In this document: positions 2,753-19,816 of the stretch, piece by piece
How positions within the stretch are numbered: the first letter of the stretch is position 1
Layout: the number at the start of each line of letters is the position of its first letter
Assembly (NCBI GenBank): GCA_963813895.1
Contig: CAWFAS010000004.1
Span: forward strand, 571,798 to 635,797
DNA: 64,000 nucleotides
Direction: 5' to 3'
Source of the DNA: an uncultured Gammaproteobacteria bacterium
GTDB taxonomy: Bacteria; Pseudomonadota; Gammaproteobacteria; JAURND01
Notes under the pieces: model-generated
What the model was told of the DNA's origin: nothing
Databases searched by the model: none
Seen by the model: the letters and a program-made list of their open reading frames with translations, nothing else
Made by a program: the position numbers and the translations under genes

Positions 2753-2808
2753 AATGAATGAATCCTATTGTTTCTAAAATATGTGTTTTAAGTAATTTTG
2801 GAGAAAAT

Positions 2809-3537
2809 ATGACGAAAATTTCTAAAATAGGTTTAATAGGAGACTATAACGACAAGGTTGTTGCTCACAGAGCCATTCCTTTAGCTCTTGAATTAGCAGC
2901 CAAACATCATAAGACAGAAGTAACCTGGGAATGGTTAGCAACCTCTGCTTTAACAACAGATGTTAATGAGCTGAATAGATTCTCCGCTATCTGGATAACC
3001 CCAGGCAGTCCCTATGCAAATATGGAAGGTGTTTTGCAAACGATTCGCTTTGCACGTGAAACGAAAAAGCCTTTATTAGGTACATGCGGCGGTTTTCAAC
3101 ACACGTTAATTGAATATGCCAGAAATGTATGCCAGATAGTTGACGCTGATCACGCCGAGACTGCCTCAGAAAAATCCTCTCTCATAGTCACACCATTAGC
3201 TTGCTCCTTACGTGAAAAAACAGGAACAATTACTTTCTTAAAAGGTACTCAACTGTACAAAATCTATGAGGGAAAATCCGCTGAGGAAGGCTATTACTGT
3301 AATTATGGTTTGAATGCGCAGTGGAAATCCAAGTTAGAAAAATCAGGCTTATATTTTTCTGGTTTTGATCCTGAATCTGAAGTGCGGGCATTCGAATTGC
3401 CTAGCCATCCCTTTTTTATTGGTGTGCTTTTTCAGCCGGAACGATCGGCACTGCAAGAAAGATATCATCCTTTAATTCAGGCGTTTGTTGAAGCTGCGAT
3501 TCTAGCCAAGATCATATCTAATGAAAAACCCATTTAA
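2809..3537 (+). CDS. Stand-alone CTP-synthase-like glutamine amidotransferase domain protein
   Basis: IGLIGDY, PGSPY, LGTCGGFQH nucleophile elbow, GVLFQPE; no synthase domain; start 2809 preferred over 2758. Confidence 0.8.
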   Translation: MTKISKIGLIGDYNDKVVAHRAIPLALELAAKHHKTEVTWEWLATSALTTDVNELNRFSAIWITPGSPYANMEGVLQTIRFARETKKPLLGTCGGFQHTLIEYARNVCQIVDADHAETASEKSSLIVTPLACSLREKTGTITFLKGTQLYKIYEGKSAEEGYYCNYGLNAQWKSKLEKSGLYFSGFDPESEVRAFELPSHPFFIGVLFQPERSALQERYHPLIQAFVEAAILAKIISNEKPI

Positions 3538-3571
3538 CTATGAAGATTTTTAATCACCCGTAGGAATAGCA

Positions 3572-3969
3572 ATGGAAGATCTAGCTCTTGATTTAGCTCA
3601 GCAATACATGAATGGTTGGAAGCAAAATAATTTACCTCTAATTATTTCTTGCTTGACAAAAAACTGTATTGTCATTGAATCACACGGCCCGACGTATCAT
3701 GGCATAGAAGCCATTGAACGATGGTTCAAATTTTGGATGGAAGCAAAAGCGCCATAATCCATTGGAATCTACATAGCTTTTATTATTGCGAAAATAAATC
3801 GACCGCTTTTGTTGAGTGGGATTTTGCCTGCACCTCAAACGATACTAAGTACGCATTTTCAGGCTGTAGTCTTTACAAATTCTTAAATCAAAAGATTGAT
3901 GTTATTCAGGAATATCGCATGACACACCATGCATATCCCTGGCGTGGTGATACTTTAACCTCAGAATAA
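3572..3969 (+). pseudogene. NTF2/SnoaL-like protein split by a 1-bp frameshift
   Basis: ORFs 3572-3757 and 3721-3969 join as WMEAKSAIIHW if one A is added to the run at 3745-3748. Confidence 0.7.
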
Positions 3970-4022
3970 AATAATGAAACTGGTCAATATGAAGTTCATT
4001 TTGTATTTCTAGACAACAGATT

Positions 4023-4685
4023 TTAATCTCTTTTTTTCAGAATATTATAAATTGATGCCCGAGAAACACCGACTGCTTCAGATATGGTCGATACGGCATT
4101 GCGCAGATGCAGAAATCCTGAATCCTCTAATACTTTTATTAGTTCACCTCTTTGTTTTAAGGATAAATTTCTAGGATTGGCATTTTTTTGCGCTGCGAAA
4201 TTTTCTATTGTCTCACGAAGCTCCAGCATTGTTTTGGTACGCAAGCTTTCCTTTATAGCTAGCGTTGGCTCGGTTGATATGAATTGTTTTAAAACATGTT
4301 GCATGGATGAAAAGAGCGAAACATCTAAATTAAGACAAATGGCAGCTATATATTTTCCTTTACTATTTTTCAGTCCGATGGATGTGCTTTTAACTGCTCT
4401 GCCGTCAGGAAATGTATTAGGGTAATTTTGAACGATTTCCGGAAATTCTGGGTCATTAATGCGAGCTAAGCCTAATTCTGTTGTTGCCTCTCCTATGTTG
4501 CGGCCTGAAAGGGGGCATTCTATTGCCATGATAGATTGGTTAGGTTGAGTGAGATCATGTAACACGACTTCACAACAAGGATAAAACATTTTACCGATCG
4601 CAGTGACAATTTTCTTTGCTTCTCGCAGTAAAATGGCATTTTCTTCACCCAATAAGGGTAATTTTGGACGAATCTTTTTAGGCAT
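4023..4685 (-). CDS. YheO/DauR-like regulator (PAS + HTH)
   Basis: CEVVLHDL, SGRNIG, KSTSIGL..ICLN; C-terminal VSRASIYNIL HTH. Confidence 0.85.
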   Translation of the reverse strand: MPKKIRPKLPLLGEENAILLREAKKIVTAIGKMFYPCCEVVLHDLTQPNQSIMAIECPLSGRNIGEATTELGLARINDPEFPEIVQNYPNTFPDGRAVKSTSIGLKNSKGKYIAAICLNLDVSLFSSMQHVLKQFISTEPTLAIKESLRTKTMLELRETIENFAAQKNANPRNLSLKQRGELIKVLEDSGFLHLRNAVSTISEAVGVSRASIYNILKKRD

Positions 4686-4702
4686 AGTTTAGAAAAAATG
4701 AG

Positions 4703-4745
4703 TTGACAATTTGTATAATATTATACATAATGTTATAAATGTCAA
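4703..4745. promoter_or_regulatory. Divergent promoters with a palindromic operator
   Basis: TTGACA at 4703 and TGTCAA at 4740 face opposite ways around the perfect 16-bp palindrome TGTATAATATTATACA (4712-4727). Confidence 0.6.
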
Positions 4746-4819
4746 GGGGGGTTGGGAAGCCTTTTCAATGAATCTCTCACGGCTAATATGTACAATTTTT
4801 AAAAATCGAGTCAAATTAT

Positions 4820-5536
4820 ATGAGCAAATTCTTCTTAGTAACTGGGGCAACTAAAGGCATTGGGCTTTCCATTGTTCAGCGTTTAGTTGGACAAGGTCAT
4901 GAAGTGATCGGAGTTGCTCGAACAAATTCCCCTAAATTTCCTGGCATATTTTATGCAATCGACCTGAGTGATCCCATTGCAACATTAGAAGGCTTCAAGG
5001 CTATAGATAATAAATACTGTATTCATGGTGTGGTAAACAATGTGGGTATAGCGATGCCACAACCATTTGCCGAAATTCAGTTGAGTGATTTTGAAACGGT
5101 ATGGGATTTGAATTGCCGTCCAGCATTGCAAGCGGTTCAGATTTTCACACCTAATATGATCGAAAATCACTGGGGAAGAATCATCAATATCACAAGTCGG
5201 GCAGTGTTAGGGGCAGAAAATCGAAGCAGTTACGGTGCTGCAAAAGCTGCCTTAGGCAATTTAACTCGTACCTGGGCATTAGAGTTGGCGAAAACAGGCA
5301 TTACTGTTAACGCAATTGCTCCTGGCCCTACGGAAACTGAGCTATTTCGTCAAAAACACCCTGTAGGTAGTGAGGCTGAACTCAAAACCATAAGTACTAT
5401 CCCGATGGGCCGCTTGGGCAAGCCAGATGAGATTGCAGCTGTGGTTGAGTTTTTATTATCCGATAGCTCTAGCTTTATGACTGGCCAAACATTGTACGTC
5501 GATGGTGGAGGCAGTATTGGCCGGCGCCTTGACTAG
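4820..5536 (+). CDS. Short-chain dehydrogenase/reductase
   Basis: TGATKGIG, NNVG, YGAAK motifs. Confidence 0.9.
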   Translation: MSKFFLVTGATKGIGLSIVQRLVGQGHEVIGVARTNSPKFPGIFYAIDLSDPIATLEGFKAIDNKYCIHGVVNNVGIAMPQPFAEIQLSDFETVWDLNCRPALQAVQIFTPNMIENHWGRIINITSRAVLGAENRSSYGAAKAALGNLTRTWALELAKTGITVNAIAPGPTETELFRQKHPVGSEAELKTISTIPMGRLGKPDEIAAVVEFLLSDSSSFMTGQTLYVDGGGSIGRRLD

Positions 5537-5589
5537 AAGAGGCTTATAAAATTCAATGTGGTTGCACTATTAATTCTTGGAGATTGTAA

Positions 5590-6567
5590 ATGAACGAAAC
5601 TAATTTATCGGTTACTTATGATGATATTATAAATGCAGCAGCAAGGTTAAAAAATATTGCACACCATACTCCAGTACTCACCTCATCTCAAGCAAACAAA
5701 ATAACCGGAGCACACGTATTTTTTAAATGTGAAAATTTTCAACGGATTGGGGCATTTAAATTCCGTGGCGCATACAATGCCATTAGCCAGCTCACCCATG
5801 CGCAAAAACAAAAAGGCGTTGTTGCTTTTTCATCCGGTAATCATGCCCAAGCCATTGCATTAGCTGCACAGCTATTAAATGTCCCTGCCACTATCGTGAT
5901 GCCCACTGATGCTCCTAGTGTCAAATTAGCCGCAACACGCGGTTATGGGGCAACAATAGCGCTTTATGACCGAAAAAATGCGAATAGAGAGGAGATTGCA
6001 GCCAATTTAGTGGAGCAGCATGGTTTTACCTTGATTCCACCCTATGACCATCCTGATGTGATTGCAGGGCAAGGTACCGCAGCCAAAGAGTTGTTTGAAG
6101 AAGTTGGGGAGCTTGATTACCTTTTCGTGCCAGTCGGTGGAGGTGGACTCATCTCTGGCTCAGCCATTTCTGCTGCGCATTTATCGCCACAATGTGCGGT
6201 GATTGGCGTAGAACCTGAAGCTGGAAATGATGCCCAACAATCCTTGGAAGCAAAAAAAATTGTTCGTATTCCCGTACCAGATACTATCGCGGATGGGGCG
6301 CAAACCCAATTCGTGGGAAAGTTGGTGCTACCTATTTTAATGAAGCACGTTAAAAATATAGTCACAGTCAGTGACGATCAATTGCGTGAACAAATGCATT
6401 TTTTTGCAGAGCGAATGAAAATCATCGTTGAACCTACAGGCTGTCTTGGCGCTGCTGCTGTTTTTAATAAAAAAGTAGATGTTCAGGGTGCGCGAATCGG
6501 CGTGATTCTCAGTGGTGGTAATGTCGAAATGAGCAAATTTTGTGATTCTGTGAGGAGTGCTGTATGA
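5590..6567 (+). CDS. PLP-dependent threo-3-hydroxyaspartate ammonia-lyase / serine-threonine dehydratase family
   Basis: KCENFQRIGAFKFRGA, SSGNHAQA, PVGGGGLISG, LSGGN. Confidence 0.88.
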   Translation: MNETNLSVTYDDIINAAARLKNIAHHTPVLTSSQANKITGAHVFFKCENFQRIGAFKFRGAYNAISQLTHAQKQKGVVAFSSGNHAQAIALAAQLLNVPATIVMPTDAPSVKLAATRGYGATIALYDRKNANREEIAANLVEQHGFTLIPPYDHPDVIAGQGTAAKELFEEVGELDYLFVPVGGGGLISGSAISAAHLSPQCAVIGVEPEAGNDAQQSLEAKKIVRIPVPDTIADGAQTQFVGKLVLPILMKHVKNIVTVSDDQLREQMHFFAERMKIIVEPTGCLGAAAVFNKKVDVQGARIGVILSGGNVEMSKFCDSVRSAV

Positions 6568-6947
6568 ATTTCATTGAAACAAACCTAGCCCCTCTCCCAG
6601 GCGGCCATTACTCCCAAGCGGTTGTATCTAATGGATTGATCTTTGTTTCTGGCGTTTTACCTTTGATTCCAGGCCAAGGGCTGAAAATACCGGACGGGAT
6701 TATCGCCCAAACAGAACAAATTCTTCACAACCTTCGGGCTATCTTAGAAGCGTCCGGCGCTAATCTCCATTCTCTTGTTAACGTGCAGGTATTCATCACA
6801 AATATCGACTTCTGGAAAGAAGTGAATGATGTTTATCAAAAGGCACTTGGCTCACATAAACCAGCTCGCACGGTGATTCCATGCGGCAGTTCATTACATT
6901 ACGGCGCGTTAATTGAAATGTGTGCAACTGCAGAAATACCCATTTGA
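6564..6947 (+). CDS. RidA/YjgF family imine deaminase
   Basis: GHYSQAV, FVSG, PAR, LIE motifs; overlaps the lyase stop. Confidence 0.88.
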   Translation: MNFIETNLAPLPGGHYSQAVVSNGLIFVSGVLPLIPGQGLKIPDGIIAQTEQILHNLRAILEASGANLHSLVNVQVFITNIDFWKEVNDVYQKALGSHKPARTVIPCGSSLHYGALIEMCATAEIPI

Positions 6948-7007
6948 ATCTAGATATATGCTAAAACATTTCATAAAAACCAGTTTGAACCTCGATCGAG
7001 AATTTAC

Positions 7008-7964
7008 ATGGCAAGTATAAATGCGCTTTTCCCTCCTATTGAGCCTTACCATACTGAATTTGTAAATGTATCACCATTACATACTGTCTATGTTGAAGAA
7101 TGTGGCAATCCTTGCGGAAAACCCGTGCTATTTATTCATGGCGGTCCTGGCGGTGGTATCCGCCCCTTCCATAGAACTTTTTTTAATCCATTATATTATC
7201 GCATCATTTTAGTAGATCAACGTGGTTGCGGAAAAAGTACGCCTCATGCGGAAATACAGGAAAATACACTGCAAGACTTGATCGATGATTTTGAAAAAAT
7301 ACGCAGATTACTTAAAATTGATCAGTGGATGTTATTTGGCGGCTCATGGGGATCTACTTTGGCACTGGCCTATGCACAAACGCATCCTGACTGTGTTTCA
7401 GAACTAGTACTTAGAGGGATATTTTTGGGTCGGCAAAAAGAATTAGAATTTATATATCAATATGGAGCAAGTGAAGTTTTTCCAGAAGCCTGGGAACAAT
7501 ATGTTGCCTTAATCCCTACGGATGAACGCACTGACTTGGTCGCAGCTTATCAAAAACGTCTATTTGGGTCAGATAAAAATTTACAATATCAAGCAGCTCA
7601 AGCATGGGCTAGTTGGGAGGCAAGCATCAGCAAATTAGTTTATGACCAAGATTTTGTTGACACTTACAATGATCCTGAGTTTGCACTAGCCATGGCGCGT
7701 ATTGAAAATCATTATTTTATGAACCATTTATTTTTGGAACCCAATCAATTATTACGCGATATTTGTAAAATCCGTCATGTCCCAGCGGTAATCGTGCATG
7801 GCCGTTATGATATGTGTTGCCCTGTTAGCAATGCATGGGATTTGCATAAAGCGTGGCCTGAATCTGAACTTTTTATTGCGCCGAAATCTGGCCATTCTGC
7901 AACTGAACCAGATATTGTTTCATATTTAATACATGCCACTAATCAACTTGCTATCAAAAGGTGA
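7008..7964 (+). CDS. pip: Prolyl aminopeptidase
   Basis: HGGPG, DQRGCGKS, GGSWGSTL, GRYDMCCP, GHS. Confidence 0.92.
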   Translation: MASINALFPPIEPYHTEFVNVSPLHTVYVEECGNPCGKPVLFIHGGPGGGIRPFHRTFFNPLYYRIILVDQRGCGKSTPHAEIQENTLQDLIDDFEKIRRLLKIDQWMLFGGSWGSTLALAYAQTHPDCVSELVLRGIFLGRQKELEFIYQYGASEVFPEAWEQYVALIPTDERTDLVAAYQKRLFGSDKNLQYQAAQAWASWEASISKLVYDQDFVDTYNDPEFALAMARIENHYFMNHLFLEPNQLLRDICKIRHVPAVIVHGRYDMCCPVSNAWDLHKAWPESELFIAPKSGHSATEPDIVSYLIHATNQLAIKR

Positions 7965-7967
7965 ACG

Positions 7968-8909
7968 ATGAAATCTTTCGCGATTTTAGGTACAGGCGCT
8001 ATTGGTGGCTTTTTCGCCGTTCGTCTGGCCCATGCTCGATTTCCAGTGCATTGCTTATTGCGAAGTGATTTTTCTTTTGTTAAAGAACATGGGCTGACCA
8101 TAGTCTCCTCGGAAGAAAATATTCATGAAAAAGTGCATGCCTATCAAAAAGTATCTATGATGCCAGCCTGTGATGTAATTTTAATCGCATTAAAAACAAC
8201 TCAAAACCACCTACTGAAAGAAATGCTCCCCTCCATTATGCATTCGGAAACTATCGTTGTAATGCTGCAAAATGGTATTGGCATGGAACAAGAGCTTGCC
8301 GAATTTATTCCACAAAAAATTGTAGGCGGTATTTGCAACCTAAAAGTTAGCAAAGAATCTTCTGGAGTTATTCGGCATTTTGGACAGAATTTCATTCAAT
8401 TAGCCCAGCATTACCTCGATGAAACCAAGCAGGATATTCCGCCAGCTATCGAAGAATTGTGTCAAAATTTTCAGCAGGCTGGTATTCCATGCACCGCCAG
8501 GGCACATTTGCCGACTTTGCGCTGGGAGAAATTAGCATCAAATATTCCAGTCAGTGGTTTAACAACTGTATTGGATGCTTCTTTACAAGCATTAGTGGCA
8601 AATCCTGCCAGTTTCTCTCTGTTATGCGCCATCACCCAAGAAGTGATTGATACAGCCAATCAATGCGGCGCTTCATTATCACCTGATTTTTTTCAGTTCA
8701 GACTGAAAATATTAAAATCATTTGTTGACATGGAGAAAAGTTACAGTAGCATGAAAGAAGACTTTGATGCTAAGCGACCTCTGGAGCTGCAGGCTATTTA
8801 TGAAAATGCCATTAACATCGCCAAAGCGCACCATTACAAAATGCCACTAACCGAAATGCTTTATCAGATGCTTTGTTATTTGGAAGATGAAAACAGATTG
8901 ATAAAATGA
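7968..8909 (+). CDS. panE: 2-dehydropantoate 2-reductase family (PanE/ApbA)
   Basis: GTGAIG, LQNGIG, WEKLASN, SSMKED..RPLE. Confidence 0.82.
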   Translation: MKSFAILGTGAIGGFFAVRLAHARFPVHCLLRSDFSFVKEHGLTIVSSEENIHEKVHAYQKVSMMPACDVILIALKTTQNHLLKEMLPSIMHSETIVVMLQNGIGMEQELAEFIPQKIVGGICNLKVSKESSGVIRHFGQNFIQLAQHYLDETKQDIPPAIEELCQNFQQAGIPCTARAHLPTLRWEKLASNIPVSGLTTVLDASLQALVANPASFSLLCAITQEVIDTANQCGASLSPDFFQFRLKILKSFVDMEKSYSSMKEDFDAKRPLELQAIYENAINIAKAHHYKMPLTEMLYQMLCYLEDENRLIK

Positions 8910-9019
8910 ATATCCTCCCATTAAAAAATCCTGTAGATCTTATTGCAATTAAATACTTAATTGATCAAACTCAATTCAAGTTGCAAATCTGACTGGAACA
9001 AATCCAGAAATAGGCGTTT

Positions 9020-11896: not shown

Positions 11897-12888
11897 TCTC
11901 CAACAATTTCAATGACACCAGGTATAACCGCTTGTAATCGCAGAATCGTGGCTAAGGTCTGATTTACTTGTTCAATTCCCATAGTTTTATGTTCCGAATC
12001 TCCAGGAACACAAGAGCGCTCTATGTTATAAACTAACCAACCAATCCAACTAAATGCACCATAAATCGCTGCGATGACATGATCCTTATTAATTACACCG
12101 CCTGATTTTTGATAGGTCTCGATCATTTTAAAAAAGAGGTGCTTATCAAAATTACTGGTAATTCCGCTCCAATAAAACGCCGTGTTGATGATGTCATAAG
12201 TGGGATTGACTTTGCAGGCAGATTCCCAATCTATCAGGATTGGATTATTGTCGATATCCCACAAAACATTTTTTTGATCCAAATCACCATGGCTGACGAT
12301 AATATGTGTTTTTAGTGCCGGTATTGCCTTTTGGTACAATTCATTAGCTGCCAATATGTTTTTCTGATTTTTCCGTAAATTTTCAGCAAAAGAGCAATTA
12401 AAAGTTTCAGCCTTGTCGAATAACTCAAGAATCTTTTCGTTTGTGTGAATATAAAATTCTGGTTGGATTATTTCAGGTTCATTCAAATTAAGACCATGCA
12501 TTTTGGCGATGATAGTAGCTATTTTTAGAGCATGCTTTTCTGACACAATGTGGATGTCTAGCGCCTTTGCATCGACCCATGGATATACTAGAAAACCAGT
12601 ATCATCTATTATGAAGAGATGTTTGCCGGATTGCGCGATAGCACAAATGCCTGGGATACCTTGTGCTACAAAATGTGATGCAACTCTTTCACTCAATTCA
12701 TAGTTTTTAATGACCTGCTTATTTTTCAGATCAATGTCTTTTGATAGCTGCTTGATTGCATAAGAGCCTTTATCTGTATCAAGCCGCCACATAATGTGCA
12801 GTAAGCCACCATGTACTCTTTTTGGAAGTTTTACTGGCTGTCCAAGGTTAAAATGCTGGCTTAAATGTTTGAGATGGTTGTGGTTCAT
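11887..12888 (-). CDS. Aminoglycoside phosphotransferase (APH/choline kinase) family protein
   Basis: HGDLDQKN and IDWE motifs; resembles 46472-47488. Confidence 0.85.
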   Translation of the reverse strand: MNHNHLKHLSQHFNLGQPVKLPKRVHGGLLHIMWRLDTDKGSYAIKQLSKDIDLKNKQVIKNYELSERVASHFVAQGIPGICAIAQSGKHLFIIDDTGFLVYPWVDAKALDIHIVSEKHALKIATIIAKMHGLNLNEPEIIQPEFYIHTNEKILELFDKAETFNCSFAENLRKNQKNILAANELYQKAIPALKTHIIVSHGDLDQKNVLWDIDNNPILIDWESACKVNPTYDIINTAFYWSGITSNFDKHLFFKMIETYQKSGGVINKDHVIAAIYGAFSWIGWLVYNIERSCVPGDSEHKTMGIEQVNQTLATILRLQAVIPGVIEIVGDQL

Positions 12889-12911
12889 ATAATTGGACTA
12901 ATTTAATAAAG

Positions 12912-13889
12912 TTAAAAACTACAACAATTCCGCTTGCGCCAAATCAAATAACCATAATTCTCGGTGCTGGTTGGTGACTCTAGCGCTGAACCCCAAGTCA
13001 TCGTAGTGCGGCCGAATGGCTGGCAGCCAGTGCTAGAAGTGGTAGCTTTTGGATTCACCATCTGATAGCGATATCGAGACTTAGGCATAATTGGTTCTAT
13101 GGTAGAGCTACATAGATGGGAAGCGCTACTGTCGCTGATTTGACCCATGCGATGCAGTTTGAAGGTGAGCCGCTCACTGAGTAGCACGCTGGCTTGTACT
13201 CCGCCGATATGCTCACCAACATGTCCCGTCAATGGATACATGGCTCCTTGTGCTCCAGCGCACCAGAAAAGTTGATCATTGGGTAGACCAGTATCTGCGG
13301 CAAGTGCGTCTTCACTACAAGCCATCTGCGAGGCAAGATTGGCAAACTGGGTAGTCTCTGGATACAAGGTTAACGCTAAAGTGTCATTTCGCCAAGTGGG
13401 ATCCAATTCACTCATGTAGGTCAATGATACATCACCGCCTTCTCTACATTCACTGCTGAATTCATTCAGCATTTGCATTACGGGGTAGTTATACCAGTGC
13501 ACATGGAAGAAGCTGGTATTTTCATTGACATTATCCACGGCGACAGTGCCATCATTAGGGCTGCCACCGATTCGTATACCACCCATATTCACCAAACAAT
13601 AAGGCGATCGAGTAACGTCTACCAAAGCCATCGGCTCCCAATACCCCATGGCGGTGCCAACTTGTGGGATGGGGTTACCAGGACATATGCAAACAGGGGA
13701 ACCCGGATTAGGTGTATCTGGATTATGGCCAGATACAATCTTAGTAGAACCAATAGTGATAGGCAGTAAGCAGTCCCAACAAATATCTGTAACTGGATTG
13801 ACTAAGTGGCCCGTGCAAGGCGTAGTGCCGGCCCATGCAGAAGAGATCATCAATGTAATCACGGATGCACTTGCCAGCTTCCAGTTCAT
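12912..13889 (-). CDS. traU: F-type conjugal transfer protein TraU
   Basis: NPVTDICWDCLLPITIG, YWEP, ELDPTW, WRKRNCC. Confidence 0.93.
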   Translation of the reverse strand: MNWKLASASVITLMISSAWAGTTPCTGHLVNPVTDICWDCLLPITIGSTKIVSGHNPDTPNPGSPVCICPGNPIPQVGTAMGYWEPMALVDVTRSPYCLVNMGGIRIGGSPNDGTVAVDNVNENTSFFHVHWYNYPVMQMLNEFSSECREGGDVSLTYMSELDPTWRNDTLALTLYPETTQFANLASQMACSEDALAADTGLPNDQLFWCAGAQGAMYPLTGHVGEHIGGVQASVLLSERLTFKLHRMGQISDSSASHLCSSTIEPIMPKSRYRYQMVNPKATTSSTGCQPFGRTTMTWGSALESPTSTENYGYLIWRKRNCCSF

Positions 13890-14509
13890 AATTTAGCCTC
13901 AGTTATCTTAAGCTGCTTTCCTTCCTGCACAACCAGTGCGGGTAGATGGGTAATATTCAATCGCGTTACTAAATGCCCCCCTTGATCAAAGTACACCTGT
14001 TTCTGAAAATTCTGCATTTGTTCAGAAATGGAACCGTTCACGAGAATTAGTTTGGTTTTCCCTCGGTATTGCTGATCCATCTGTTGCGCCCATGCCACTT
14101 GCTGAGGGTTGCCGCCATCGTAAAAAATTAATGCGTTAGACCAGGTCAATGTATCCAATGGATTAAATCGGGAACCATTGGCTTTGATGAGATGATTGTG
14201 GTTATCATGGATATCATATGGGAGGATCATAGTGGGATCGTAAAGCCAACTCCTGGTCTCCTGGGCAGGGGTTAATCCACTCACGGGTGTTGGCCTATCG
14301 GCGTAAGTTCGCAAAGTGGCGACTTGTTGTTCTTGCCACTTCGCCCATTCGCCACTTTGGATTTTTTGCTGCACTTCAGCTTGAATGGCCTGTAAAAAAT
14401 CTTGCTCAGCAATGGGGTAAGTTGCGCCAACAGTCCCCAAATTTTTTGCTGATACGATAAATGGTAGAAAGAGTAGCAACCAACCTACCCAATATTGCCT
14501 TTTAACCAT
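13886..14509 (-). CDS. traW: F-type conjugal transfer protein TraW
   Basis: KNLGTVGATYPIAEQD, G.RFNPLD, YFDQGG.L. Confidence 0.92.
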   Translation of the reverse strand: MVKRQYWVGWLLLFLPFIVSAKNLGTVGATYPIAEQDFLQAIQAEVQQKIQSGEWAKWQEQQVATLRTYADRPTPVSGLTPAQETRSWLYDPTMILPYDIHDNHNHLIKANGSRFNPLDTLTWSNALIFYDGGNPQQVAWAQQMDQQYRGKTKLILVNGSISEQMQNFQKQVYFDQGGHLVTRLNITHLPALVVQEGKQLKITEAKL

Positions 14510-14525
14510 AAAGCATATCCTTTTA

Positions 14526-14909
14526 TTAAAAATTACGACTAATCGGCGGCAGTTGTGCTTTTAATTGTGCTTCTACTTCGGGACTTACATCTTTTGCACC
14601 GGCAATGACAGCTTCTCTGGGCAGCAAAATAACTTGTTTATTATTCGCAAAATTATGTAATGTATTCTCCAAAAGTGTTCCAAACAGCTGCACTTGCCTT
14701 TGTTTTTGCTCAGCGGGTAATTTAACCGTCACCTCGCTTTTAATAAATCGGTTAATGATGCTGGTTACATCAACAGTAACCACAGGCTTGGATGGTTCGA
14801 TCAAGTGGAATAGAATAAACAGTGCTGCTGCGCCTAACATGCTAATGAAAAACTGTGTTGTAAAATCCAGTAACTTGGCTCTACTTAGCTTAGGAAGATC
14901 CAATGCCAT
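14526..14909 (-). CDS. trbI: F-type conjugative protein TrbI
   Basis: Single TM, VVTVDV, VILLPREAVIAGAKDVS; position before traW. Confidence 0.8.
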   Translation of the reverse strand: MALDLPKLSRAKLLDFTTQFFISMLGAAALFILFHLIEPSKPVVTVDVTSIINRFIKSEVTVKLPAEQKQRQVQLFGTLLENTLHNFANNKQVILLPREAVIAGAKDVSPEVEAQLKAQLPPISRNF

Positions 14910-15048
14910 AGGGGTACTCCTTTATGGAAAACTTGATTAAAATGTGATTTAAATGGCAACTTTGCCCATCTTAAGCTGCCTGCTGATCATCCTTTGTCGC
15001 AACATATTTTTTATCGACTACCAATTGATGAATATTTGAAGGTGAAAA

Positions 15049-15567
15049 ATGAGTGAATTGATTATTCGGGAACCGAGAATGTCAGATGAAGAAGCTTTTA
15101 TTGCTGCTATGCAACGTAGCCAGAATTTACATTTTCCTTGGGTAAAATCACCTCAAACTAAAGAGGAGTTTGAAAAATATCTCCAACGCTCACAACTTGT
15201 CAATCAAAAATCTTTCTTAGCATGCGGTATTTCAGGAAATATTGTGGGTGTATTCAATATCAATGAAATTGTTTTAGGGTTATTTCAGAGTGCATACCTA
15301 GGATTTTATTCGGTTAGTGATTATGCTGGTCAAGGGTATATGAATCATGCGTTAAAGTTAGTTTTAAGAAATATTTTTGAAGAAATGAAATTACATCGAA
15401 TTGAAGCTAACATCCAACCTAAAAATATCCGATCAATAAACTTAGTAAAAGCGAATGGTTTTTCTAAAGAAGGTTTTTCTCCTCGATATTTAAATATCAA
15501 TGGTGTGTGGTGTGACCATGAGCGTTGGGCATTGACCTACGAGGACTGGATTCAGTGCAAATCCTAA
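15049..15567 (+). CDS. RimJ/RimL-type GNAT acetyltransferase
   Basis: SAYLGFY, GQGYM, LHRIEANIQPKN.RS, GFSKEG, DHERW. Confidence 0.9.
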   Translation: MSELIIREPRMSDEEAFIAAMQRSQNLHFPWVKSPQTKEEFEKYLQRSQLVNQKSFLACGISGNIVGVFNINEIVLGLFQSAYLGFYSVSDYAGQGYMNHALKLVLRNIFEEMKLHRIEANIQPKNIRSINLVKANGFSKEGFSPRYLNINGVWCDHERWALTYEDWIQCKS

Positions 15568-15628
15568 AGCACCACTTCATAGAAACCTTTAATTAGGTTT
15601 TAAACAAATTCAACCAAGAGAATCGCAT

Positions 15629-16351
15629 ATGCCAATAAAACCGGTTTTTAATCAATTAGCGCCTTATTACGATCTAATTTATGCCTGGAAGGACTACCAG
15701 AAAGAAGCCAATAGAATTAAATCTCTAATAAAAAAATATAAAAAATCTGATGGCAATGATTTGCTGGAGGTCGCCTGTGGCACAGGAAAACATACACAAT
15801 ACCTGAAAGATGATTTTTTGATTCTGGGCACGGATGCAAATAAATCCATGCTAACAATTGCTCAAAAGAGCAATCCAGATGTGAAGTTCAAGCAGGTGGA
15901 TATGGTCAAAATGGATTTGAGTAATACCTTCGATGCGATTATTTGTCTTTTCAGTTCGATTGGATATGTAAAGACATATAAAAACCTTAGCGCCACCATT
16001 AAAAATTTTTCGCAGCACTTGAATAAAGGAGGTGTAGTTATTATAGAGCCTTGGTTCACAGAATCCGCTTATATTACTGGATTACCCAGCATGACTATTC
16101 ATGATGGCAAGGATATAAAAATTGCCAGACTCTGCGTCTGTAAAAAACGTGGCATTCTGTCTGTCATGGATATGCACTACCTTATCGCGGAAAAGAACCA
16201 AACTATGAAACATTTTATCGAACGGCATGAGCTTGCCATGTTTGATGTGGACAAAGTACTCAGTATCATGGAGAAAAATAGCCTGAAAGCTCAGTTTTTA
16301 AACAATGGTTTAATGAAAGATCGCGGTTTATATATTGGTGTAAAGAAATAA
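15629..16351 (+). CDS. Class I SAM-dependent methyltransferase (DesVI/TylM1-like)
   Basis: LLEVACGTG, FDAIICLFSSIGY, GGVVIIEPWF. Confidence 0.85.
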   Translation: MPIKPVFNQLAPYYDLIYAWKDYQKEANRIKSLIKKYKKSDGNDLLEVACGTGKHTQYLKDDFLILGTDANKSMLTIAQKSNPDVKFKQVDMVKMDLSNTFDAIICLFSSIGYVKTYKNLSATIKNFSQHLNKGGVVIIEPWFTESAYITGLPSMTIHDGKDIKIARLCVCKKRGILSVMDMHYLIAEKNQTMKHFIERHELAMFDVDKVLSIMEKNSLKAQFLNNGLMKDRGLYIGVKK

Positions 16352-16366
16352 CGGCTTTCAACATGA

Positions 16367-18868
16367 TCATCTTTGTTTGAACCGTTTTTCTGTTATGGCT
16401 GCGATAGCATCTTTCAGAGATAAACCTTGTGCTTGTAATTGTTTAACTGCTTCAAACTCTTCACCTTTAGATGAATAAAGAATCCGTGAATAAGGATCTA
16501 AAACAATGCGATGGAGTGATAATCCCTGCGGGCTTTTAATCACACATTCGGAATAATCATCTGTTTTTTTCAAGTCTTTAAATAAGCGCTCAGTATAAGC
16601 ATCCATATTCAGGCGTTTAGCTGCTTTTAGCTGATCAATGCTTTCCGTTTTTTGTCCTAAAATCAGGTTGTAATCGGAGTTTTCATACGCGGCAATGGCA
16701 GTGGCATTTTTAAAATAATCATTGATGGATTGAGTAATCGTAACAAAATTAGCATTGTAGCGTCGTGCTCTACGATAGCCGGTTTCGATAAATTTAGCTG
16801 CACCTTCATTATCACCATCCAACAAATCCCAGGCTTCATCGATCACACAGGATTTAGTTTGTGTGCGAGAACCTAAATACATACGCTCAGAGATTTGGTA
16901 CATCAACACCAGTAATACGATTTTTTGGAGATCTTTTTTGGCTTTGAGTTCTTCCAATTCTAAAACCACCAAAGGATTCTCAAAATTCAACGTGCAACGT
17001 CCTTCAAAATATTTACCGTACATGCCATCTTGGGTATAGGTGTATAGTAAATGTCCCAGACGTTCGCAAATTTCATTGTGCTGTTGCGATAACCAGTTGG
17101 CAACCTGGGTAATACTGGCTTGATTACCACACTCTGTCCACGCTGCTTTTAGGGCTTTTTCTAAATAAGTCATTTCTTCATCGGTAACGTTACCGTTGGG
17201 TCTTGCCATCGCTGCTAATAGAGGCTTTAGAATTTCAAGCGAATCATCAAAAGATTGGATGAACGTGAATGGGTTTAATGAAATGTGACTATCAGTCTTG
17301 AATTCAATAAACTCTCCGCCGAGGATATGGCAGGTTTTCTCATAAGAACGGCCGACATCGATCACCCAAACTCTGCCGCCAGAACCTAATAAGGCCACAA
17401 TGTATTCTTGCGTCAGCACAGATTTACCGCTACCCGATTTAGCAGCAATAGCCACATTATAATTACCGTCGGGATTATCAAAAGGATTCCAGATGGCGAT
17501 TTGACCTCGTCGACCTGGCAACAGTAAGCTTGGCCGTTGCATCCCTTTCCATTCACCCTGTAGTGGTAATAGGTTAGCAGCCGCGAAGGCATTGATTGAG
17601 CGCAGGCGACCAAATAGGCGTAGATCATCATACAATCCTTCACTCATCATCATGGGCAACATCGCAAGCCAAGATTGAAATTGCAAGAATGCTTCTTTGC
17701 GCAGTTTCCAGCCATTGGCGCGATACAGATCCCGCACTTTACGCTCGGCGGCGTTAGCTTGTTCTGGTTGCGCATAAATAACCACTTGATAAAACACTTT
17801 TACCAAGCGATCACCTTCTGCCAACCGGTCACGGATAAACGCCCAATCCTGATATTCCTGACGGATGGTGGGTTTAAATTTAGCCAGTGGACTTTTCGCT
17901 GTAGAATCTTTATTGAGGAAATGCATTTGTGCACGAGAGCTGGATTTTTCCTGATCTAATGGTCGTACATGAAAGCTAATTAAGAATGGGCATGGAATTT
18001 GCAAAGCGCTATTGAATAATTGGCCTAAATTTTCGCCCATCAACCATTGCGTCATTGTCTGTGGAAAATCGCGCACGGTAAAACAGCGCACTGCCCAATC
18101 TTCATGTTCGCTCTGTAATTTTAATTGGTTAGGATGCACTGTCAGCTGATATTCGGGATCTGTCATTTGTAGCGATAATGCATCTAATTCATGCCAAGCT
18201 TGCTGTGCTGCGTAGCAGGAAGTAGAAGGGTTTAACAAATCCGTCATCAGACTAAGAAAATTCTCAATCGGGATATTGCGACTGACCACTTGTAACGAGC
18301 GCAGCGAACTGCTGATATCCTCTCGCACCTGCATTAAAGATTCGGTACTTTCCTGATTTTTATGTGGCATCGACACCACCAGATGCAGGCGAAAGTCCCG
18401 CAAGACGAAATTACCGTCAGAAGCTATGGATTTTAATGTCCCGCTTTTTAAGAATTCAGCCCGCTTTTGCGCCAACCAAGAAAATATGCCACTATGTTGA
18501 GAGCGTTCCATCGCAAAAGCATCAATACTGTCGCCGATTTTGTCGGAAGCCCATAACAGGCACTGCATATCGGCTGAAGTAGGCAAGACATCAGTAAGCA
18601 AACTGGCTAAAATCTGTACTGTTTGTTCACTGGCTCCGGTGAGTGGGGCTACTTCTAATATAAATCCCTGGCTTTTTTTGTTATAAAAGATCTGTGTATC
18701 GGGATTGTAGGTTTCATAGGGTAACAAACTAGACAGAGGGTATTGGTCAAAGAAATCACCCAGCAGGTGGGATGGCGGTGTTTTTTTACTGACACCAAAT
18801 TGGATGGACTCTCCCAACCAGCCAGCGATTGTTTCTTTCCAGTCGGAAAAGTTAAACCAATCTTTCAT
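16367..18868 (-). CDS. traC: F-type T4SS ATPase TraC (VirB4 family)
   Basis: Walker A AKSGSGKS, VIDVGRSY, Walker B CVIDEAW, TGYRRARRY. Confidence 0.95.
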   Translation of the reverse strand: MKDWFNFSDWKETIAGWLGESIQFGVSKKTPPSHLLGDFFDQYPLSSLLPYETYNPDTQIFYNKKSQGFILEVAPLTGASEQTVQILASLLTDVLPTSADMQCLLWASDKIGDSIDAFAMERSQHSGIFSWLAQKRAEFLKSGTLKSIASDGNFVLRDFRLHLVVSMPHKNQESTESLMQVREDISSSLRSLQVVSRNIPIENFLSLMTDLLNPSTSCYAAQQAWHELDALSLQMTDPEYQLTVHPNQLKLQSEHEDWAVRCFTVRDFPQTMTQWLMGENLGQLFNSALQIPCPFLISFHVRPLDQEKSSSRAQMHFLNKDSTAKSPLAKFKPTIRQEYQDWAFIRDRLAEGDRLVKVFYQVVIYAQPEQANAAERKVRDLYRANGWKLRKEAFLQFQSWLAMLPMMMSEGLYDDLRLFGRLRSINAFAAANLLPLQGEWKGMQRPSLLLPGRRGQIAIWNPFDNPDGNYNVAIAAKSGSGKSVLTQEYIVALLGSGGRVWVIDVGRSYEKTCHILGGEFIEFKTDSHISLNPFTFIQSFDDSLEILKPLLAAMARPNGNVTDEEMTYLEKALKAAWTECGNQASITQVANWLSQQHNEICERLGHLLYTYTQDGMYGKYFEGRCTLNFENPLVVLELEELKAKKDLQKIVLLVLMYQISERMYLGSRTQTKSCVIDEAWDLLDGDNEGAAKFIETGYRRARRYNANFVTITQSINDYFKNATAIAAYENSDYNLILGQKTESIDQLKAAKRLNMDAYTERLFKDLKKTDDYSECVIKSPQGLSLHRIVLDPYSRILYSSKGEEFEAVKQLQAQGLSLKDAIAAITEKRFKQR

Positions 18869-18930
18869 GATGCATATCTCAATTTGTAGTTTGTGGTGTG
18901 GAATATTATTTATTTAAAATCGGAGCTTTT

Positions 18931-19365
18931 ATGAAAACACTTACTGGACGTTGCCTTTGCGAAGCTATTACTTACGAAATCACAGGACAACTCGGCCCAA
19001 TTGTGAATTGTCATTGCTCGAAATGTCGGCGTTGGCATGGTGCTGCGTTTAGAACACGTGCCTCTGTTAAAAAAGATCAATTTAAATGGGTAGCAGGCGA
19101 ACAACTTTTGTCCAAATATCCAGTTTCAGAAAATGCTATTCACACATTTTGTTCGATTTGCGGTTCTTGTTTGGTTACGTTTTACAAGAATCCACCGGAT
19201 TTGATTCGCCTACCTTTGGGTGGTTTGGAGCAAGATCCAGGCTCTCGTCCTGAGGCTAATATTTTCGTGGGTTCTAAAGCACCCTGGTATACGATTTGTG
19301 ATGGATTGCCTCAATATACGAACAGACCAGAATCAGATGCTAACGTTTCTTTAGAAAAAAAGTAA
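18931..19365 (+). CDS. GFA (CENP-V-like) family protein
   Basis: GRCLCEAI, CHCSKCRR, FCSICGS zinc motifs. Confidence 0.88.
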   Translation: MKTLTGRCLCEAITYEITGQLGPIVNCHCSKCRRWHGAAFRTRASVKKDQFKWVAGEQLLSKYPVSENAIHTFCSICGSCLVTFYKNPPDLIRLPLGGLEQDPGSRPEANIFVGSKAPWYTICDGLPQYTNRPESDANVSLEKK

Positions 19366-19399
19366 ATATGTAGTTTTATCGATGACAATGTCACAAATC

Positions 19400-19816
19400 T
19401 CAGTTAACTGTTGAAGTGGAAATATTTGCCCATTGTCCTGGTTTAACTACACTATAGAGTGTGCCAGGCTGATGATAATTACCATCTTGGTCTTCATAGG
19501 GCGCGATCCAAATGCGCATCACGGTTTCTGGTTGGCGCAGCCATTCAGGATTCGCAAAGGAGCCGCTCTTACTTGCGAATGTACCAACCTGATTTTGAAT
19601 GGTTGCAGTTGTGAGATTGGAATTTCCTACAGTTCTTTTTGCACCAACCTTACCTTGGTCAATCATCGTATTTACCTGATCCAGGCTATTGCATTGCACG
19701 CCAGGTTGCATTGGGCAGCTGAAATTAGAGTTCAGGCCAGTACATCCGGTTAACATGAATGAAAATATACAGGCGCAGAAAAATAACTGTTTTTTAAAAA
19801 GTGATGATGCAGTCAT
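19400..19816 (-). CDS. traV: Conjugative lipoprotein TraV
   Basis: Lipobox LTGC, FSCP..G..C.SLDQVN, RIWIAPYED. Confidence 0.9.
   Translation of the reverse strand: MTASSLFKKQLFFCACIFSFMLTGCTGLNSNFSCPMQPGVQCNSLDQVNTMIDQGKVGAKRTVGNSNLTTATIQNQVGTFASKSGSFANPEWLRQPETVMRIWIAPYEDQDGNYHQPGTLYSVVKPGQWANISTSTVN

What the first reader, a model, noticed from the sequence alone, without database searches (positions are those of the whole stretch)
2753..19405. Moron-like cargo blocks placed precisely between tra genes, with junction microhomologies and no transposase
Seen: four blocks split the tra operon (traH/traG 6.2 kb, traU/trbC, traC/trbI, traV/traC), mostly antisense, and every tra ORF stays intact. 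Junction direct repeats: TATTG at 2766 and 9021 (rejoining gives traH ...CAA TAG GATTCATTCATT ATG traG), TGATCATC(C)TTTGT at 14984 and 16364, and ATCTCA(A/G)TT at 18876 and 19397. None is convincing at traU/trbC. No IS, transposase or attC-like site was noticed. Known: lambdoid late operons tolerate morons because Q reads through their terminators. Inference: antitermination makes the tra operon a landing zone, with capture by microhomology or an unknown mechanism.
Basis: partly seen in the sequence, partly recalled or inferred. Interest (0 to 1): 0.75.

Follow-up and report, generated by a model that had tools for sequence, protein, structure and literature searches.

The report
Cargo hotspots inside a conjugation operon
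Four blocks of unrelated "passenger" genes sit exactly between intact DNA-transfer genes of a chromosomal mobile element. This is the same kind of insertion hotspot known from SXT/R391 elements, but here the transfer operon appears to be wired like the late operon of a lambda-type phage.

Summary
Four cargo blocks (6.27, 1.23, 1.46 and 0.53 kb) split an intact F-type tra operon on the minus strand. Nine of 11 cargo genes are antisense, and there is no transposase. More distant relatives are empty at these sites, with overlapping or closely spaced tra genes. Closer relatives (about 75-91% nucleotide identity) carry different cargo at the same sites, and homology breaks at the traH and traV stop codons. 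The blocks are composite: they hold a DJ-1 gene remnant, a GNAT module missing in the closest relative, and a private 5-kb operon.

TATTG and ATCTCA(A/G)TT are at chance level. The 13/14-nt repeat is nominally significant, but one copy lies inside a sub-module that the closest relative lacks.

The Q idea gains indirect support. A Q-family gene is present, and a near-consensus promoter followed by two tandem terminators heads the operon. This arrangement is conserved in relatives and in a real prophage.

Verdict: these are ICE variable-region hotspots of the SXT/R391 kind, in a new phage-wired element family. How cargo is captured remains unresolved.

The parts
263..2752 (-). traG (829 aa), the last tra gene in the window; intact
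   Evidence: Pfam TraG_N E = 8e-106; 63-73% aa identity to relatives over the full length
2753..3979 (+). Block A, older traG-proximal part: GATase-like gene (probable start 2810, stop 3537) plus small ORFs. Shared with the relatives in runs X1 and X2.
   Evidence: Pfam GATase. X2 contigs cover 2796-3979 at about 91-95% identity, and both X1 and X2 diverge at 3979. X2 has an extra 1044 nt in place of 3505-3561.
3980..9019 (+). Block A, private 5.04-kb module. The YheO-type regulator (4023-4685) is on the minus strand, diverging from the SDR, PLP enzyme, RidA, alpha/beta hydrolase and PanE-like reductase genes. The module ends at the traH stop codon.
   Evidence: Pfam. Divergent promoter-like sites at 4690-4745. 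Absent from the X1/X2 relatives. Homology with L026 stops at 9018-9021.
9020..11684 (-). traH, traF, trbC; intact and contiguous
   Evidence: Pfam TraH, TraF, TrbC_Ftype; 80.8% nt identity to L019 over 9021-11811
11685..12911 (.). Block B. It holds a remnant of the N-terminus of a DJ-1/PfpI gene (11733-11890, + strand) and an APH/choline-kinase-like gene (11887-12888, - strand, tra sense).
   Evidence: Pfam APH. Homology to L019 extends to 11811, into the full-length DJ-1/PfpI gene of L019 at 15986-16630. The X2 relative has the same block with a 53-nt difference at 11812-11866.
12912..14909 (-). traU, traW, trbI; intact
   Evidence: Pfam; 74% nt identity to L019 over 12921-14943
14910..16366 (+). 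Block C: GNAT acetyltransferase (15049-15567) and SAM methyltransferase (15629-16351), both antisense. The GNAT sub-module (about 14935-15617) is missing in the X2 relative.
   Evidence: Pfam; joint 14934>15618 in X2; independent assembly L018 identical
16367..18868 (-). traC (833 aa); intact
   Evidence: Pfam TraC_F_IV E = 6e-102; homology to L019 runs from the ATG (18868) to 16376
18869..19399 (+). Block D: GFA-family gene (about 18932-19365), antisense
   Evidence: Pfam GFA. The X2 relative's homology breaks exactly at 19400, the traV stop codon. L019 has LysE + SDR here instead.
19400..23024 (-). traV, traB, traK, traE, traL, traA; no insertions
   Evidence: Pfam
23077..24814 (-). First genes of the operon: ParB-N6/N4 DNA methyltransferase (23570-24814; true ATG at 24814) and a terminase-small-subunit-like HTH protein (23077-23517)
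   Evidence: Pfam; PHROG 498 E = 3.5e-141 and PHROG 4102 E = 2.8e-24; start fixed by alignment with L019
24843..24974 (-). Operon leader: -35 TTGACT (24974-24969), 18-nt spacer, -10 TATAAA (24950-24945), conserved box GTGACATAGTTGTAAC, terminator 1 (24918-24894), terminator 2 (24876-24843)
   Evidence: Sequence. The RNA folds into two hairpins each followed by U7, MFE -39.8 kcal/mol, z = -4.65. Conserved in L019, L025, L029, L030, L031 and L035, with changes that keep the stems.
37843..38226 (-). Q-family antiterminator-like gene (127 aa), preceded by a phage-type module: Cro-like gene 40079-40999, replication initiator 38884-40086, DUF6475 gene 38231-38923
   Evidence: Pfam Phage_antitermQ E = 3.9e-5, below the curated cut-off; PHROG 79 E = 9.8e-9; sources name homologs 'antiterminator Q family'; AF2 model pLDDT 85, best Foldseek hit Q21 6p1b

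Best explanation
The blocks are variable-region hotspots of an integrative conjugative element (ICE), of the kind described for SXT/R391.

Shown:
- The ancestral F-type operon was compact, with overlapping or closely spaced genes.
- In the lineage of this window, foreign modules accumulated at four junctions (traV/traC, traC/trbI, traU/trbC, traH/traG).
- The blocks were later remodelled by nested insertions, replacements and deletions.

Inferred:
- The events are ordinary illegitimate recombination, sometimes IS-assisted, with at most a few bases of microhomology.
- Selection for transfer removes every event that damages a tra ORF. As a result the conserved/variable boundaries come to lie on the stop and start codons.
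- The operon tolerates up to 6.3 kb of untranslated antisense spacer because it is transcribed as a phage-type late operon. A Q-family protein would load RNA polymerase at the promoter at 24974-24945 and carry it through the two leader terminators. It would then also carry it through Rho-dependent and intrinsic termination inside the cargo.

For: Ancestral state and hotspots:
- Empty alleles: traV/traC overlap by 8 nt, traC/trbI overlap by 4 nt, traU/trbC are 6-64 nt apart and traH/traG 30-49 nt apart in L001-L006 and L012. Outgroups L008, L020, L021 and L034 and the Aquicella plasmid are similarly tight.
- Same sites, different cargo: L019 at all four sites; L026/X2 at traH and traV; L025, L007, L016 and L032 at traH/traG.
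- Breaks fall on stop codons: traH at 9018-9021, traV at 19400.

Stepwise build-up:
- DJ-1 remnant.
- GNAT indel bounded by CTTGATTA/CTTTAATTA.
- Private module 3980-9019.
- IS elements or IS fragments lie in the tra regions of relatives L012, L025 and L032.

Q wiring:
- Q homologs sit directly upstream of the promoter/terminator leader and the T4SS operon in L025 and L030.
- The same leader sits before the lysis, methylase and terminase genes in prophage L035.
- Leader fold, PHROG hits and Foldseek hit to Q21.

Other:
- No strong tra-sense intrinsic terminator lies in the cargo.
- The tra-sense RNA across blocks C and D has no ORF longer than 51 aa.
- The SXT/R391 precedent shows identical boundary behaviour (PMC2791158).
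Against: - No transcript data exist for this element. All relatives come from metagenomes.
- The Q assignment is weak by sequence: below the Pfam cut-off, Foldseek E = 0.39, TM 0.61.
- The link between the Q-type leader and filled junctions rests on one clade (window, X2, L019, L025). It is effectively a single observation.
- L030 has the Q module but a compact VirB-type operon.
- Relatives without the leader (L007, L016) still have cargo at traH/traG.
- The antisense bias (31 of 41 genes, p = 0.0015; 14 of 18 blocks, p = 0.03) suggests read-through is not indifferent to what is inserted.
- Internal promoters in front of trbI, traC, trbC or traG could replace antitermination. They were not excluded.
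- That breaks fall exactly after stop codons in three independent comparisons could also point to a directed mechanism.
Confidence: 0.6

Rival explanations
1. One reading: each block was captured in one step by microhomology at the named direct repeats (TATTG; TGATCATC(C)TTTGT; ATCTCA(A/G)TT). Rejoining on them would restore the empty site.
For: The repeats are present as stated. The block C repeat has a nominal p = 0.009. L026 and L019 end traH with CAATAG, which matches the CAATAG upstream of traG in the window. One resolved indel (the GNAT module) is bounded by a short AT-rich microhomology.
Against: Repeats A and D are at chance level. Rejoining would give 12, about 75 and 10 nt spacers, whereas empty relatives have 30-49 nt, a 4-nt overlap and an 8-nt overlap. 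The left copy of the block C repeat lies inside the GNAT sub-module that the X2 relative lacks, so it does not flank one event. Blocks A, B and C are demonstrably composite.
Confidence: 0.06
2. A dedicated site-directed system, such as an unrecognised recombinase or a stop-codon-proximal attachment site, places cassettes immediately after tra stop codons.
For: Breakpoints fall 0-2 nt after the traH and traV stop codons in independent comparisons. The same was seen at SXT hotspot 2, and its authors suspected a specific mechanism.
Against: No shared motif, inverted repeat or attC-like structure was seen at the cargo ends. No extra recombinase was found near the operon. The downstream boundaries vary, from 0 to about 130 nt before the next start. 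Breakpoints inside the blocks (3979, 11811, 14934) are not at stop codons.
Confidence: 0.08
3. Cargo is exchanged wholesale between related elements by homologous recombination in the flanking tra genes, as in SXT/R391 hybrid formation. First captures are rare, and most diversity comes from shuffling.
For: Backbone identity to L019 differs by segment: 70.4, 77.0, 74.0 and 80.8%. The assembly that holds L019 also holds a second, decayed copy, L024, so co-resident elements exist. SXT precedent.
Against: The per-gene identity ranking is similar against distant relatives, so constraint alone can explain the segment differences. No cargo module was seen shared between otherwise divergent elements, apart from inherited ones (RibD_C, DJ-1).
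Confidence: 0.2
4. The cargo is ancestral, and compact relatives lost it.
For: Deletions clearly occur (DJ-1 truncation, possible GNAT loss).
Against: Overlapping stop/start codons at traV/traC and traC/trbI recur in many lineages. These include outgroups at 35-55% identity and a cultured Aquicella plasmid. Cargo at a given site is unrelated between elements.
Confidence: 0.04

Closest known systems
SXT/R391 ICE hotspots HS1-HS5 (Wozniak et al. 2009, PMC2791158)
   Same: A conserved, syntenic conjugation backbone is punctuated by variable DNA at fixed intergenic sites. Contents differ between elements. Boundaries sit immediately after a stop codon and a short distance before the next start. Remnants of earlier inserts and nested additions are present. 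Core ORFs are never interrupted. The mechanism is unresolved: selection versus a specific recombination system.
   Different: The element family is unrelated. It comes from uncultured Gammaproteobacteria, and its nearest annotated relative is an Aquicella (Legionellales) plasmid at 53% TraH identity. No SetCD/SetR and no bet/exo genes were found in the window. The hotspots are at different junctions. The cargo is mostly antisense, inside what appears to be one long transcription unit. Regulation looks phage-late-like.
Morons in lambdoid late operons read through by Q
   Same: Extra genes lie between conserved genes of a long operon. That operon starts with a promoter followed by terminators and is paired with a Q-family gene. 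The first two operon genes (ParB-methylase, small-terminase-like) are phage late genes.
   Different: Morons are defined by their own promoter and terminator and are usually co-oriented. Here no cargo terminators were found, 9 of 11 genes are antisense, and the composition differs only slightly (GC 40.1 vs 43.3%). The operon encodes a T4SS, not virions.
F plasmid tra operon with interspersed accessory genes (traR, trbA, antisense artA, traS/T and others) and RfaH/ops-dependent elongation
   Same: It has the same MPF-F gene order, with non-essential genes tucked between core tra genes. A long operon needs processive elongation control (my own knowledge; RfaH in PMC7593976).
   Different: The F inserts are small, mostly co-oriented and family-conserved, not kilobase metabolic or resistance-like cargo that differs between close relatives. 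The elongation factor is a host NusG paralog, not a Q-family protein.
Processive antitermination of Gram-positive conjugation operons (pLS20 conAn; Tn916)
   Same: A dedicated antitermination system lets RNA polymerase traverse a conjugation operon longer than 20 kb that contains terminators.
   Different: Those systems are RNA/protein systems encoded inside the operon of Firmicutes elements. They have no homology to Q, and no hotspot cargo has been linked to them.

Membership tests
ICE variable-region hotspots (SXT/R391-type phenomenon) | Conserved syntenic backbone shared by several elements | tested here: met
   The same order ParB-MT, TerS-like, traA-L-E-K-B-V-C-trbI-W-U-trbC-F-H-G is found in more than 15 loci.
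ICE variable-region hotspots (SXT/R391-type phenomenon) | Variable DNA of different content at the same intergenic site in different elements | tested here: met
   traH/traG is filled with unrelated genes in the window, L026, L019, L025, L007, L016 and L032. All four sites differ between the window and L019.
ICE variable-region hotspots (SXT/R391-type phenomenon) | Core genes uninterrupted; boundaries at gene ends | tested here: met
   Full-length tra ORFs; breaks at the traH and traV stop codons and at the traC ATG.
SXT/R391 family itself | SXT-type core genes (SetCD/SetR, bet/exo, prfC-specific integrase) and high backbone identity | tested here: not met
   No megablast match in PLSDB. None of these genes appeared in the Pfam/NCBIfam scans of the window. 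The nearest plasmid TraH is 53% identical and from Aquicella.
Phage morons | Autonomous unit: own promoter and own terminator | tested here: inconclusive
   Block A has a strong divergent promoter pair at 4690-4745. No convincing promoter was found for blocks C and D, and no terminator follows any block. These are consensus scans only.
Phage morons | Composition distinct from the flanking operon | tested here: inconclusive
   GC 40.1 vs 43.3%, Mann-Whitney p = 0.019; the GC3 difference is not significant.
Integron cassettes | attC sites and an IntI integrase | tested here: not met
   No repeated or palindromic end structures. The integrases at 49067-50302 and 51924-53057 are ordinary phage-type integrases and lie far from the operon.
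Transposon / IS insertion | Transposase, terminal inverted repeats, target duplication | tested here: not met
   None found in 2753-19405. IS elements do occur in the tra regions of relatives L012, L025 and L032.
Q-family (lambdoid) late-operon antitermination | A Q-family protein | tested here: inconclusive
   Pfam PF06530 scores 24 bits against a cut-off of 26. PHROG 79 E = 9.8e-9. The NCBI name for homologs is 'antiterminator Q family'. Foldseek top hits are Q21 (prob 0.97, TM 0.61, E = 0.39). There is no PDB match by sequence.
Q-family (lambdoid) late-operon antitermination | Late promoter followed closely by terminator(s), next to the Q gene, heading a long operon | tested here: met
   The leader lies at 24974-24843. 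It is adjacent to Q in L025, L030 and L031. It is separated from Q by cargo or TA genes in the window, L019/L027, L029 and L035.
Q-family (lambdoid) late-operon antitermination | Q-binding element, sigma-dependent pause, and terminator read-through in vivo | not testable with these tools
   Only a conserved box, GTGACATAGTTGTAAC, between the -10 and terminator 1 was seen.
MPF-F (F-type) conjugative T4SS | TraA/L/E/K/B/V/C/W/U/TrbC/N/F/H/G set | tested here: inconclusive
   All are present except TraN. TraN is also missing at this position in the close relatives, but it is present in the Aquicella plasmid. The window ends 262 nt beyond traG.

The most novel reading that the evidence does not exclude
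A family of chromosomal conjugative elements in uncultured Legionellales-like Gammaproteobacteria has placed its T4SS operon (F-type, and in a sister group VirB-type) in the late-operon slot of a lambdoid phage. That slot follows Cro, the replication genes, Q, the late promoter with tandem terminators, the methylase and the small-terminase homolog. In this reading, Q-type processive antitermination relaxes polarity and lets kilobases of mostly antisense cargo accumulate between translationally coupled tra genes. It would be a natural test bed for the idea that antitermination creates insertion-tolerant operons.
Probability: 0.3. Interest if true: 0.75.

Novelty: new variant of a known kind. 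Interest (0 to 1): 0.55.

Why it matters
Hotspots explain how conjugative elements carry ever-changing resistance and metabolic cargo without losing mobility. Why particular junctions are permissive has been open since the SXT/R391 comparisons. This element offers a clean contrast. Compact relatives have overlapping tra genes and a different regulatory region. Against them stands a clade with a phage-type Q/late-promoter leader in which four junctions have opened and turn over faster than the backbone diverges; cargo differs at 91% nucleotide identity. If Q-dependent read-through is confirmed, it would link transcription elongation control to the evolvability of mobile elements. It would also add Q-family proteins to the known regulators of conjugation. 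The cargo itself (GNATs, APH-like kinases, beta-lactamase-fold proteins) belongs to the environmental resistome.

Tried and rejected
- Megablast of 1-20000 against PLSDB: no match.
- tRNA scan of the window: none, so no attachment site was identified.
- Rfam at gathering threshold: no hit.
- The repeat finder on 1-25000: only short matches of the sort chance produces, nothing at block ends. The 26-nt imperfect inverted repeat 14933/15630 is no better than dozens of others.
- attC-like or integron reading: rejected, as there are no palindromic ends and no IntI.
- Terminator scan of the cargo: fewer hits than in shuffles, and none with a long T run in the tra sense.
- Fine alignment of junctions with L019: at about 75-80% identity the intergenic DNA is not alignable beyond about 35 nt upstream of trbI, so it cannot test the repeats.
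- Looking for the X2 loose end after 3979 inside the L026 tail, to size that relative's block A: no overlap.
- Profile of Q homologs against PDB sequences: nothing. tblastn of Q against INPHARED phages: nothing.
- Look-up of P0125: not on record.
- Mosaic test of the backbone against L019: the segment identities differ, but constraint explains this equally well.
Full report
**Anatomy**

The first 25 kb of the window carry an F-type type IV secretion (tra) operon on the minus strand. Pfam gives, in transcription order:
- a ParB-N6/N4 DNA methyltransferase (23570-24814);
- an HTH protein (23077-23517);
- traA, traL, traE, traK, traB and traV (19400-19816);
- traC (16367-18868);
- trbI, traW and traU (12912-14909);
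- trbC, traF and traH (9020-11684);
- traG (263-2752).

Four blocks lie between them:
- Block A, 2753-9019 (6267 nt): GATase-like gene, YheO-type regulator, SDR, PLP-dependent enzyme, RidA, alpha/beta hydrolase, PanE-like reductase.
- Block B, 11685-12911 (1227 nt): an APH/choline-kinase-like gene in the tra sense.
- Block C, 14910-16366 (1457 nt): a GNAT and a methyltransferase.
- Block D, 18869-19399 (531 nt): a GFA-family gene.

Nine of the 11 cargo genes are antisense to tra. None is a transposase. The element sits on a contig of about 657 kb and has a tyrosine integrase at 49067-50302. It is therefore an integrated conjugative element, not a plasmid. An independent Logan assembly is 100% identical over 12786-16855, which rules out a chimeric assembly for block C.

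**The stated repeats**

All three repeats are present at the stated coordinates. I compared the two boundary windows of each block with 1000 shuffles.
- Block A: better matches than TATTG arise by chance (p about 0.5-0.96).
- Block B: nothing.
- Block C: the 13/14-nt TGATCATC(C)TTTGT gives p = 0.009, about 0.04 after correcting for four junctions.

**Empty sites**

A scan of one genome per species with TraU gave 17 loci. Nine of them belong to the same element family, with the same gene order (TraU 62-67% identical). In L001-L006 and L012 all four junctions are empty:
- traV and traC overlap by 8 nt (ATGCTTAA);
- traC and trbI overlap by 4 nt (ATGA);
- traU and trbC are 6-64 nt apart (92 nt in L006);
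- traH and traG are 30-49 nt apart.

Outgroups are equally tight. These are L008, L020, L021, L034 and the cultured Aquicella lusitana plasmid 4, whose TraH is 53% identical. The compact, translationally coupled state is therefore ancestral, and the blocks are insertions.

None reproduces the empty alleles.

**Filled sites in relatives**

- L019 (a metagenome contig; TraC 87%, TraH 93% aa; 70-81% nt) has insertions at the same four junctions, with unrelated genes. LysE + SDR lie at traV/traC. A 228-aa protein lies at traC/trbI. A 498-aa protein + ABM + DJ-1/PfpI lie at traU/trbC. SnoaL + an ArsR-type regulator + a 157-aa protein follow traH.
- traH/traG is also filled with still other genes in L007 (3.9 kb), L016 (4.7 kb), L025 (0.95 kb) and L032 (3.2 kb). 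L032 includes an ART-like gene and an IS3 transposase fragment.
- traG/traD and traD/relaxase carry antisense ORFs in L025 and L032.
- The closest relative (Logan contigs of run X2, including L026; about 91% nt, TraH 97% aa) has a small cytochrome c next to traH. Homology with the window stops within 2 nt of the traH stop codon.
- On the traV side, homology stops exactly at 19400, the first base of the stop codon.

**The blocks are composite**

1. Window 11733-11890 is the N-terminal remnant of a DJ-1/PfpI gene that is full length at the same place in L019. DNA homology runs to 11811. The APH gene therefore replaced older cargo.
2. The X2 relative keeps the methyltransferase of block C but lacks the GNAT. 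The joint runs from 14934 to 15618, and its filler matches window 15590-15617. The private segment is about 14940-15595, bounded by CTTGATTA/CTTTAATTA.
3. In block A, both X1 and X2 share 2796-3979 (the GATase part; X2 has an extra 1044 nt nested after it). Both diverge at 3979. The YheO-to-PanE operon (3980-9019) is therefore a private 5-kb module that abuts the traH stop. I saw no direct repeat at its ends.

Cargo thus turns over faster than the backbone diverges, through several kinds of events.

**Composition**

Cargo genes are slightly lower in GC than tra genes (40.1 vs 43.3%, Mann-Whitney p = 0.019). GC3 does not differ significantly. The whole window is 40.5% GC. The cargo is not compositionally exotic.

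**The Q premise**

The ORF at 37843-38367 contains a 127-aa protein (37843-38226). Sources name its homologs 'antiterminator Q family'.
- Pfam PF06530 is just below its cut-off.
- PHROG 79, 'anti-termination protein Q-like', has E = 9.8e-9.
- An AlphaFold model (pLDDT 85) finds phage 21 Q as its best PDB match, and five further Q21 entries rank among the top 36 hits. The score is weak: prob 0.97, TM 0.61, E = 0.39.
- Upstream lie a Cro-like gene, a phage replication initiator (PHROG 16167, E = 1e-68) and a DUF6475 gene.

The decisive anatomy is at the head of the tra operon, read on the minus strand:
- TTGACT (24974-24969), 18 nt, TATAAA (24950-24945);
- a conserved box GTGACATAGTTGTAAC;
- two hairpins, each followed by seven U (24918-24894 and 24876-24843). 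MFE is -39.8 kcal/mol, z = -4.65, with 0 of 200 shuffles as stable;
- the true ATG of the methylase at 24814.

The same promoter and tandem-terminator leader, with stem sequences that differ but still pair, heads the operon in L019, L025 and L029. It also heads a VirB-type T4SS operon in L030/L031. In L025 and L030 it lies 200-300 nt after the Q gene, as PR'-tR' does in lambdoid phages.

In L035, a true prophage, the same Q module and leader precede a putative holin, an endolysin, the ParB-methylase and the large terminase. The HTH protein that follows the methylase in the window is a small-terminase homolog (PHROG 4102, E = 2.8e-24). The tra operon therefore occupies the late-operon slot of a phage regulatory module.

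The compact relatives L001-L006 lack this leader. They have arrays of TTTCCCGA/TCGGGAAATTTT boxes instead.

The 12.9 kb between Q and the promoter (24975-37842) is itself a cargo hotspot. Its content is partly shared with L019/L027 and differs in L029. It lies outside the tra transcript.

**Does antitermination explain the landing zone?**

For:
- The tra-sense RNA must cross 0.5-6.3 kb that is essentially untranslated. There is no ORF longer than 51 aa in blocks C and D.
- In an ordinary operon this would invite Rho-dependent polarity. Q-modified polymerase is known to resist both intrinsic and Rho-dependent termination (established knowledge of lambda Q).
- The only lineage with all four internal junctions open is the one with the Q-type leader.

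Against, or limiting:
- That lineage is one clade, so the association is a single observation.
- L030 has Q but a compact operon.
- L007 and L016 lack the leader yet have traH/traG cargo.
- No strong tra-sense terminator is present in the cargo to be read through.
- Cargo orientation is biased: 31 antisense against 10 sense genes over nine elements (binomial p = 0.0015), or 14 against 4 by block (p = 0.03). This would not be expected if read-through made the content irrelevant.
- Internal promoters were not excluded.

**Most likely mechanism**

Shown: the sites are recurrent, the contents differ, the boundaries sit on gene ends, and the blocks grew and shrank stepwise.

Inferred: capture is by ordinary illegitimate recombination, occasionally IS-assisted, followed by decay. 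IS elements or IS fragments lie in the tra regions of relatives. Selection for transfer trims the conserved/variable boundary to the stop and start codons. Once a junction is opened, its spacer is a larger target for further events. A Q-type late-operon design probably buffers polarity.

Exchange of blocks between co-resident elements by recombination in the flanking tra genes may add to this. The assembly that holds L019 also holds a decayed second copy, L024.

**Comparison with what is known**

This is the behaviour described for the five hotspots of SXT/R391 ICEs (PMC2791158):
- inserts are exclusively intergenic;
- at hotspot 2 the insert 'immediately follow[s] the stop codon of traA';
- remnants of earlier inserts are present;
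- permissive sites increase after a first insertion;
- the choice between a special recombination mechanism and selection remains open.

The present element is not an SXT/R391 member. The F plasmid itself carries small accessory genes, one of them antisense, between core tra genes, and depends on RfaH (my own knowledge). Processive antitermination of conjugation operons is documented for pLS20 and Tn916. I found no paper linking a Q-family protein to a conjugation operon. That is absence from a limited library, not proof of novelty.

**Verdict**

The microhomology mechanism is not supported. The finding is a new variant of a known kind: ICE hotspots, in a phage-late-operon-wired F-type element of Legionellales-like bacteria.

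Noticed in passing
window 24843-24974 (minus strand): A near-consensus promoter followed by two tandem intrinsic terminators lies just upstream of the ParB-methylase gene. The mechanical ORF call (start 24907) begins inside terminator 1; the true start is 24814.
   Followed up: yes
window 24975-37842: A 12.9-kb cargo island lies between the Q-like gene and its presumed target promoter. It holds GNATs, a RibD_C gene, two APH-like kinases, a VanY/M15 peptidase, SnoaL, an AAT-fold hydrolase, TetR + POT transporter, a class-A-like and a serine beta-lactamase-fold protein, and a BD-FAE hydrolase. Both ends are shared with L019/L027 and the middle is different. It looks like a fifth hotspot.
   Followed up: partly
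window 11733-11890 (+): Remnant of the N-terminus of a DJ-1/PfpI gene, truncated by the APH-like gene. The gene is full length at the same site in L019 15986-16630.
   Followed up: yes
window 9020-13889 and related loci L001-L007, L019: No traN between trbC and traF in this element or its close relatives, although the Aquicella plasmid (L036 13478-15262) has one. Large ORFs without Pfam hits at traH/traG in L007 and L016 (609-752 aa) were not examined as possible replacements.
   Followed up: no
L001-L006, about 400 nt upstream of the ParB-methylase gene: The compact relatives have 4-7 copies of TTTCCCGA / TCGGGAAATTTT boxes and a divergent upstream gene instead of the Q-type leader. This suggests a different regulatory system for the same operon.
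   Followed up: partly
L035 10001-16550: A real prophage carries the same DUF6475-Q module. A HigB/HigA pair is inserted between Q and the late promoter/tandem terminators, followed by a GH108 endolysin, the ParB-methylase and the large terminase. It shows the phage origin of the ICE module.
   Followed up: partly
L030 8148-20381 and L031: A Q homolog (57% identity) and the same leader sit directly upstream of a compact virB2-virB11 operon, with a csrA paralog nearby as in Legionella ICEs. The Q module is shared between F-type and P-type conjugation systems.
   Followed up: partly
window 51924-61109: Beyond the ICE integrase lies a second tyrosine integrase, a DUF3987 primase-like gene, a YhcG/DUF1016 nuclease and a SIR2-like gene. 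This may be a separate small island or defence cluster next to the ICE end.
   Followed up: no
window 41629-42489 and 45907-46458: An AadA-like nucleotidyltransferase gene lies between the Cro-like gene and the integrase. A 183-aa fragment of a Cmx-like MFS efflux gene (a probable pseudogene) is also present.
   Followed up: no
L024 (same assembly as L019) and L033: These are decayed copies of the tra cluster: fragmented traF, traG and traC, with cargo ORFs still present. The elements appear to degrade in place while the cargo remains.
   Followed up: no
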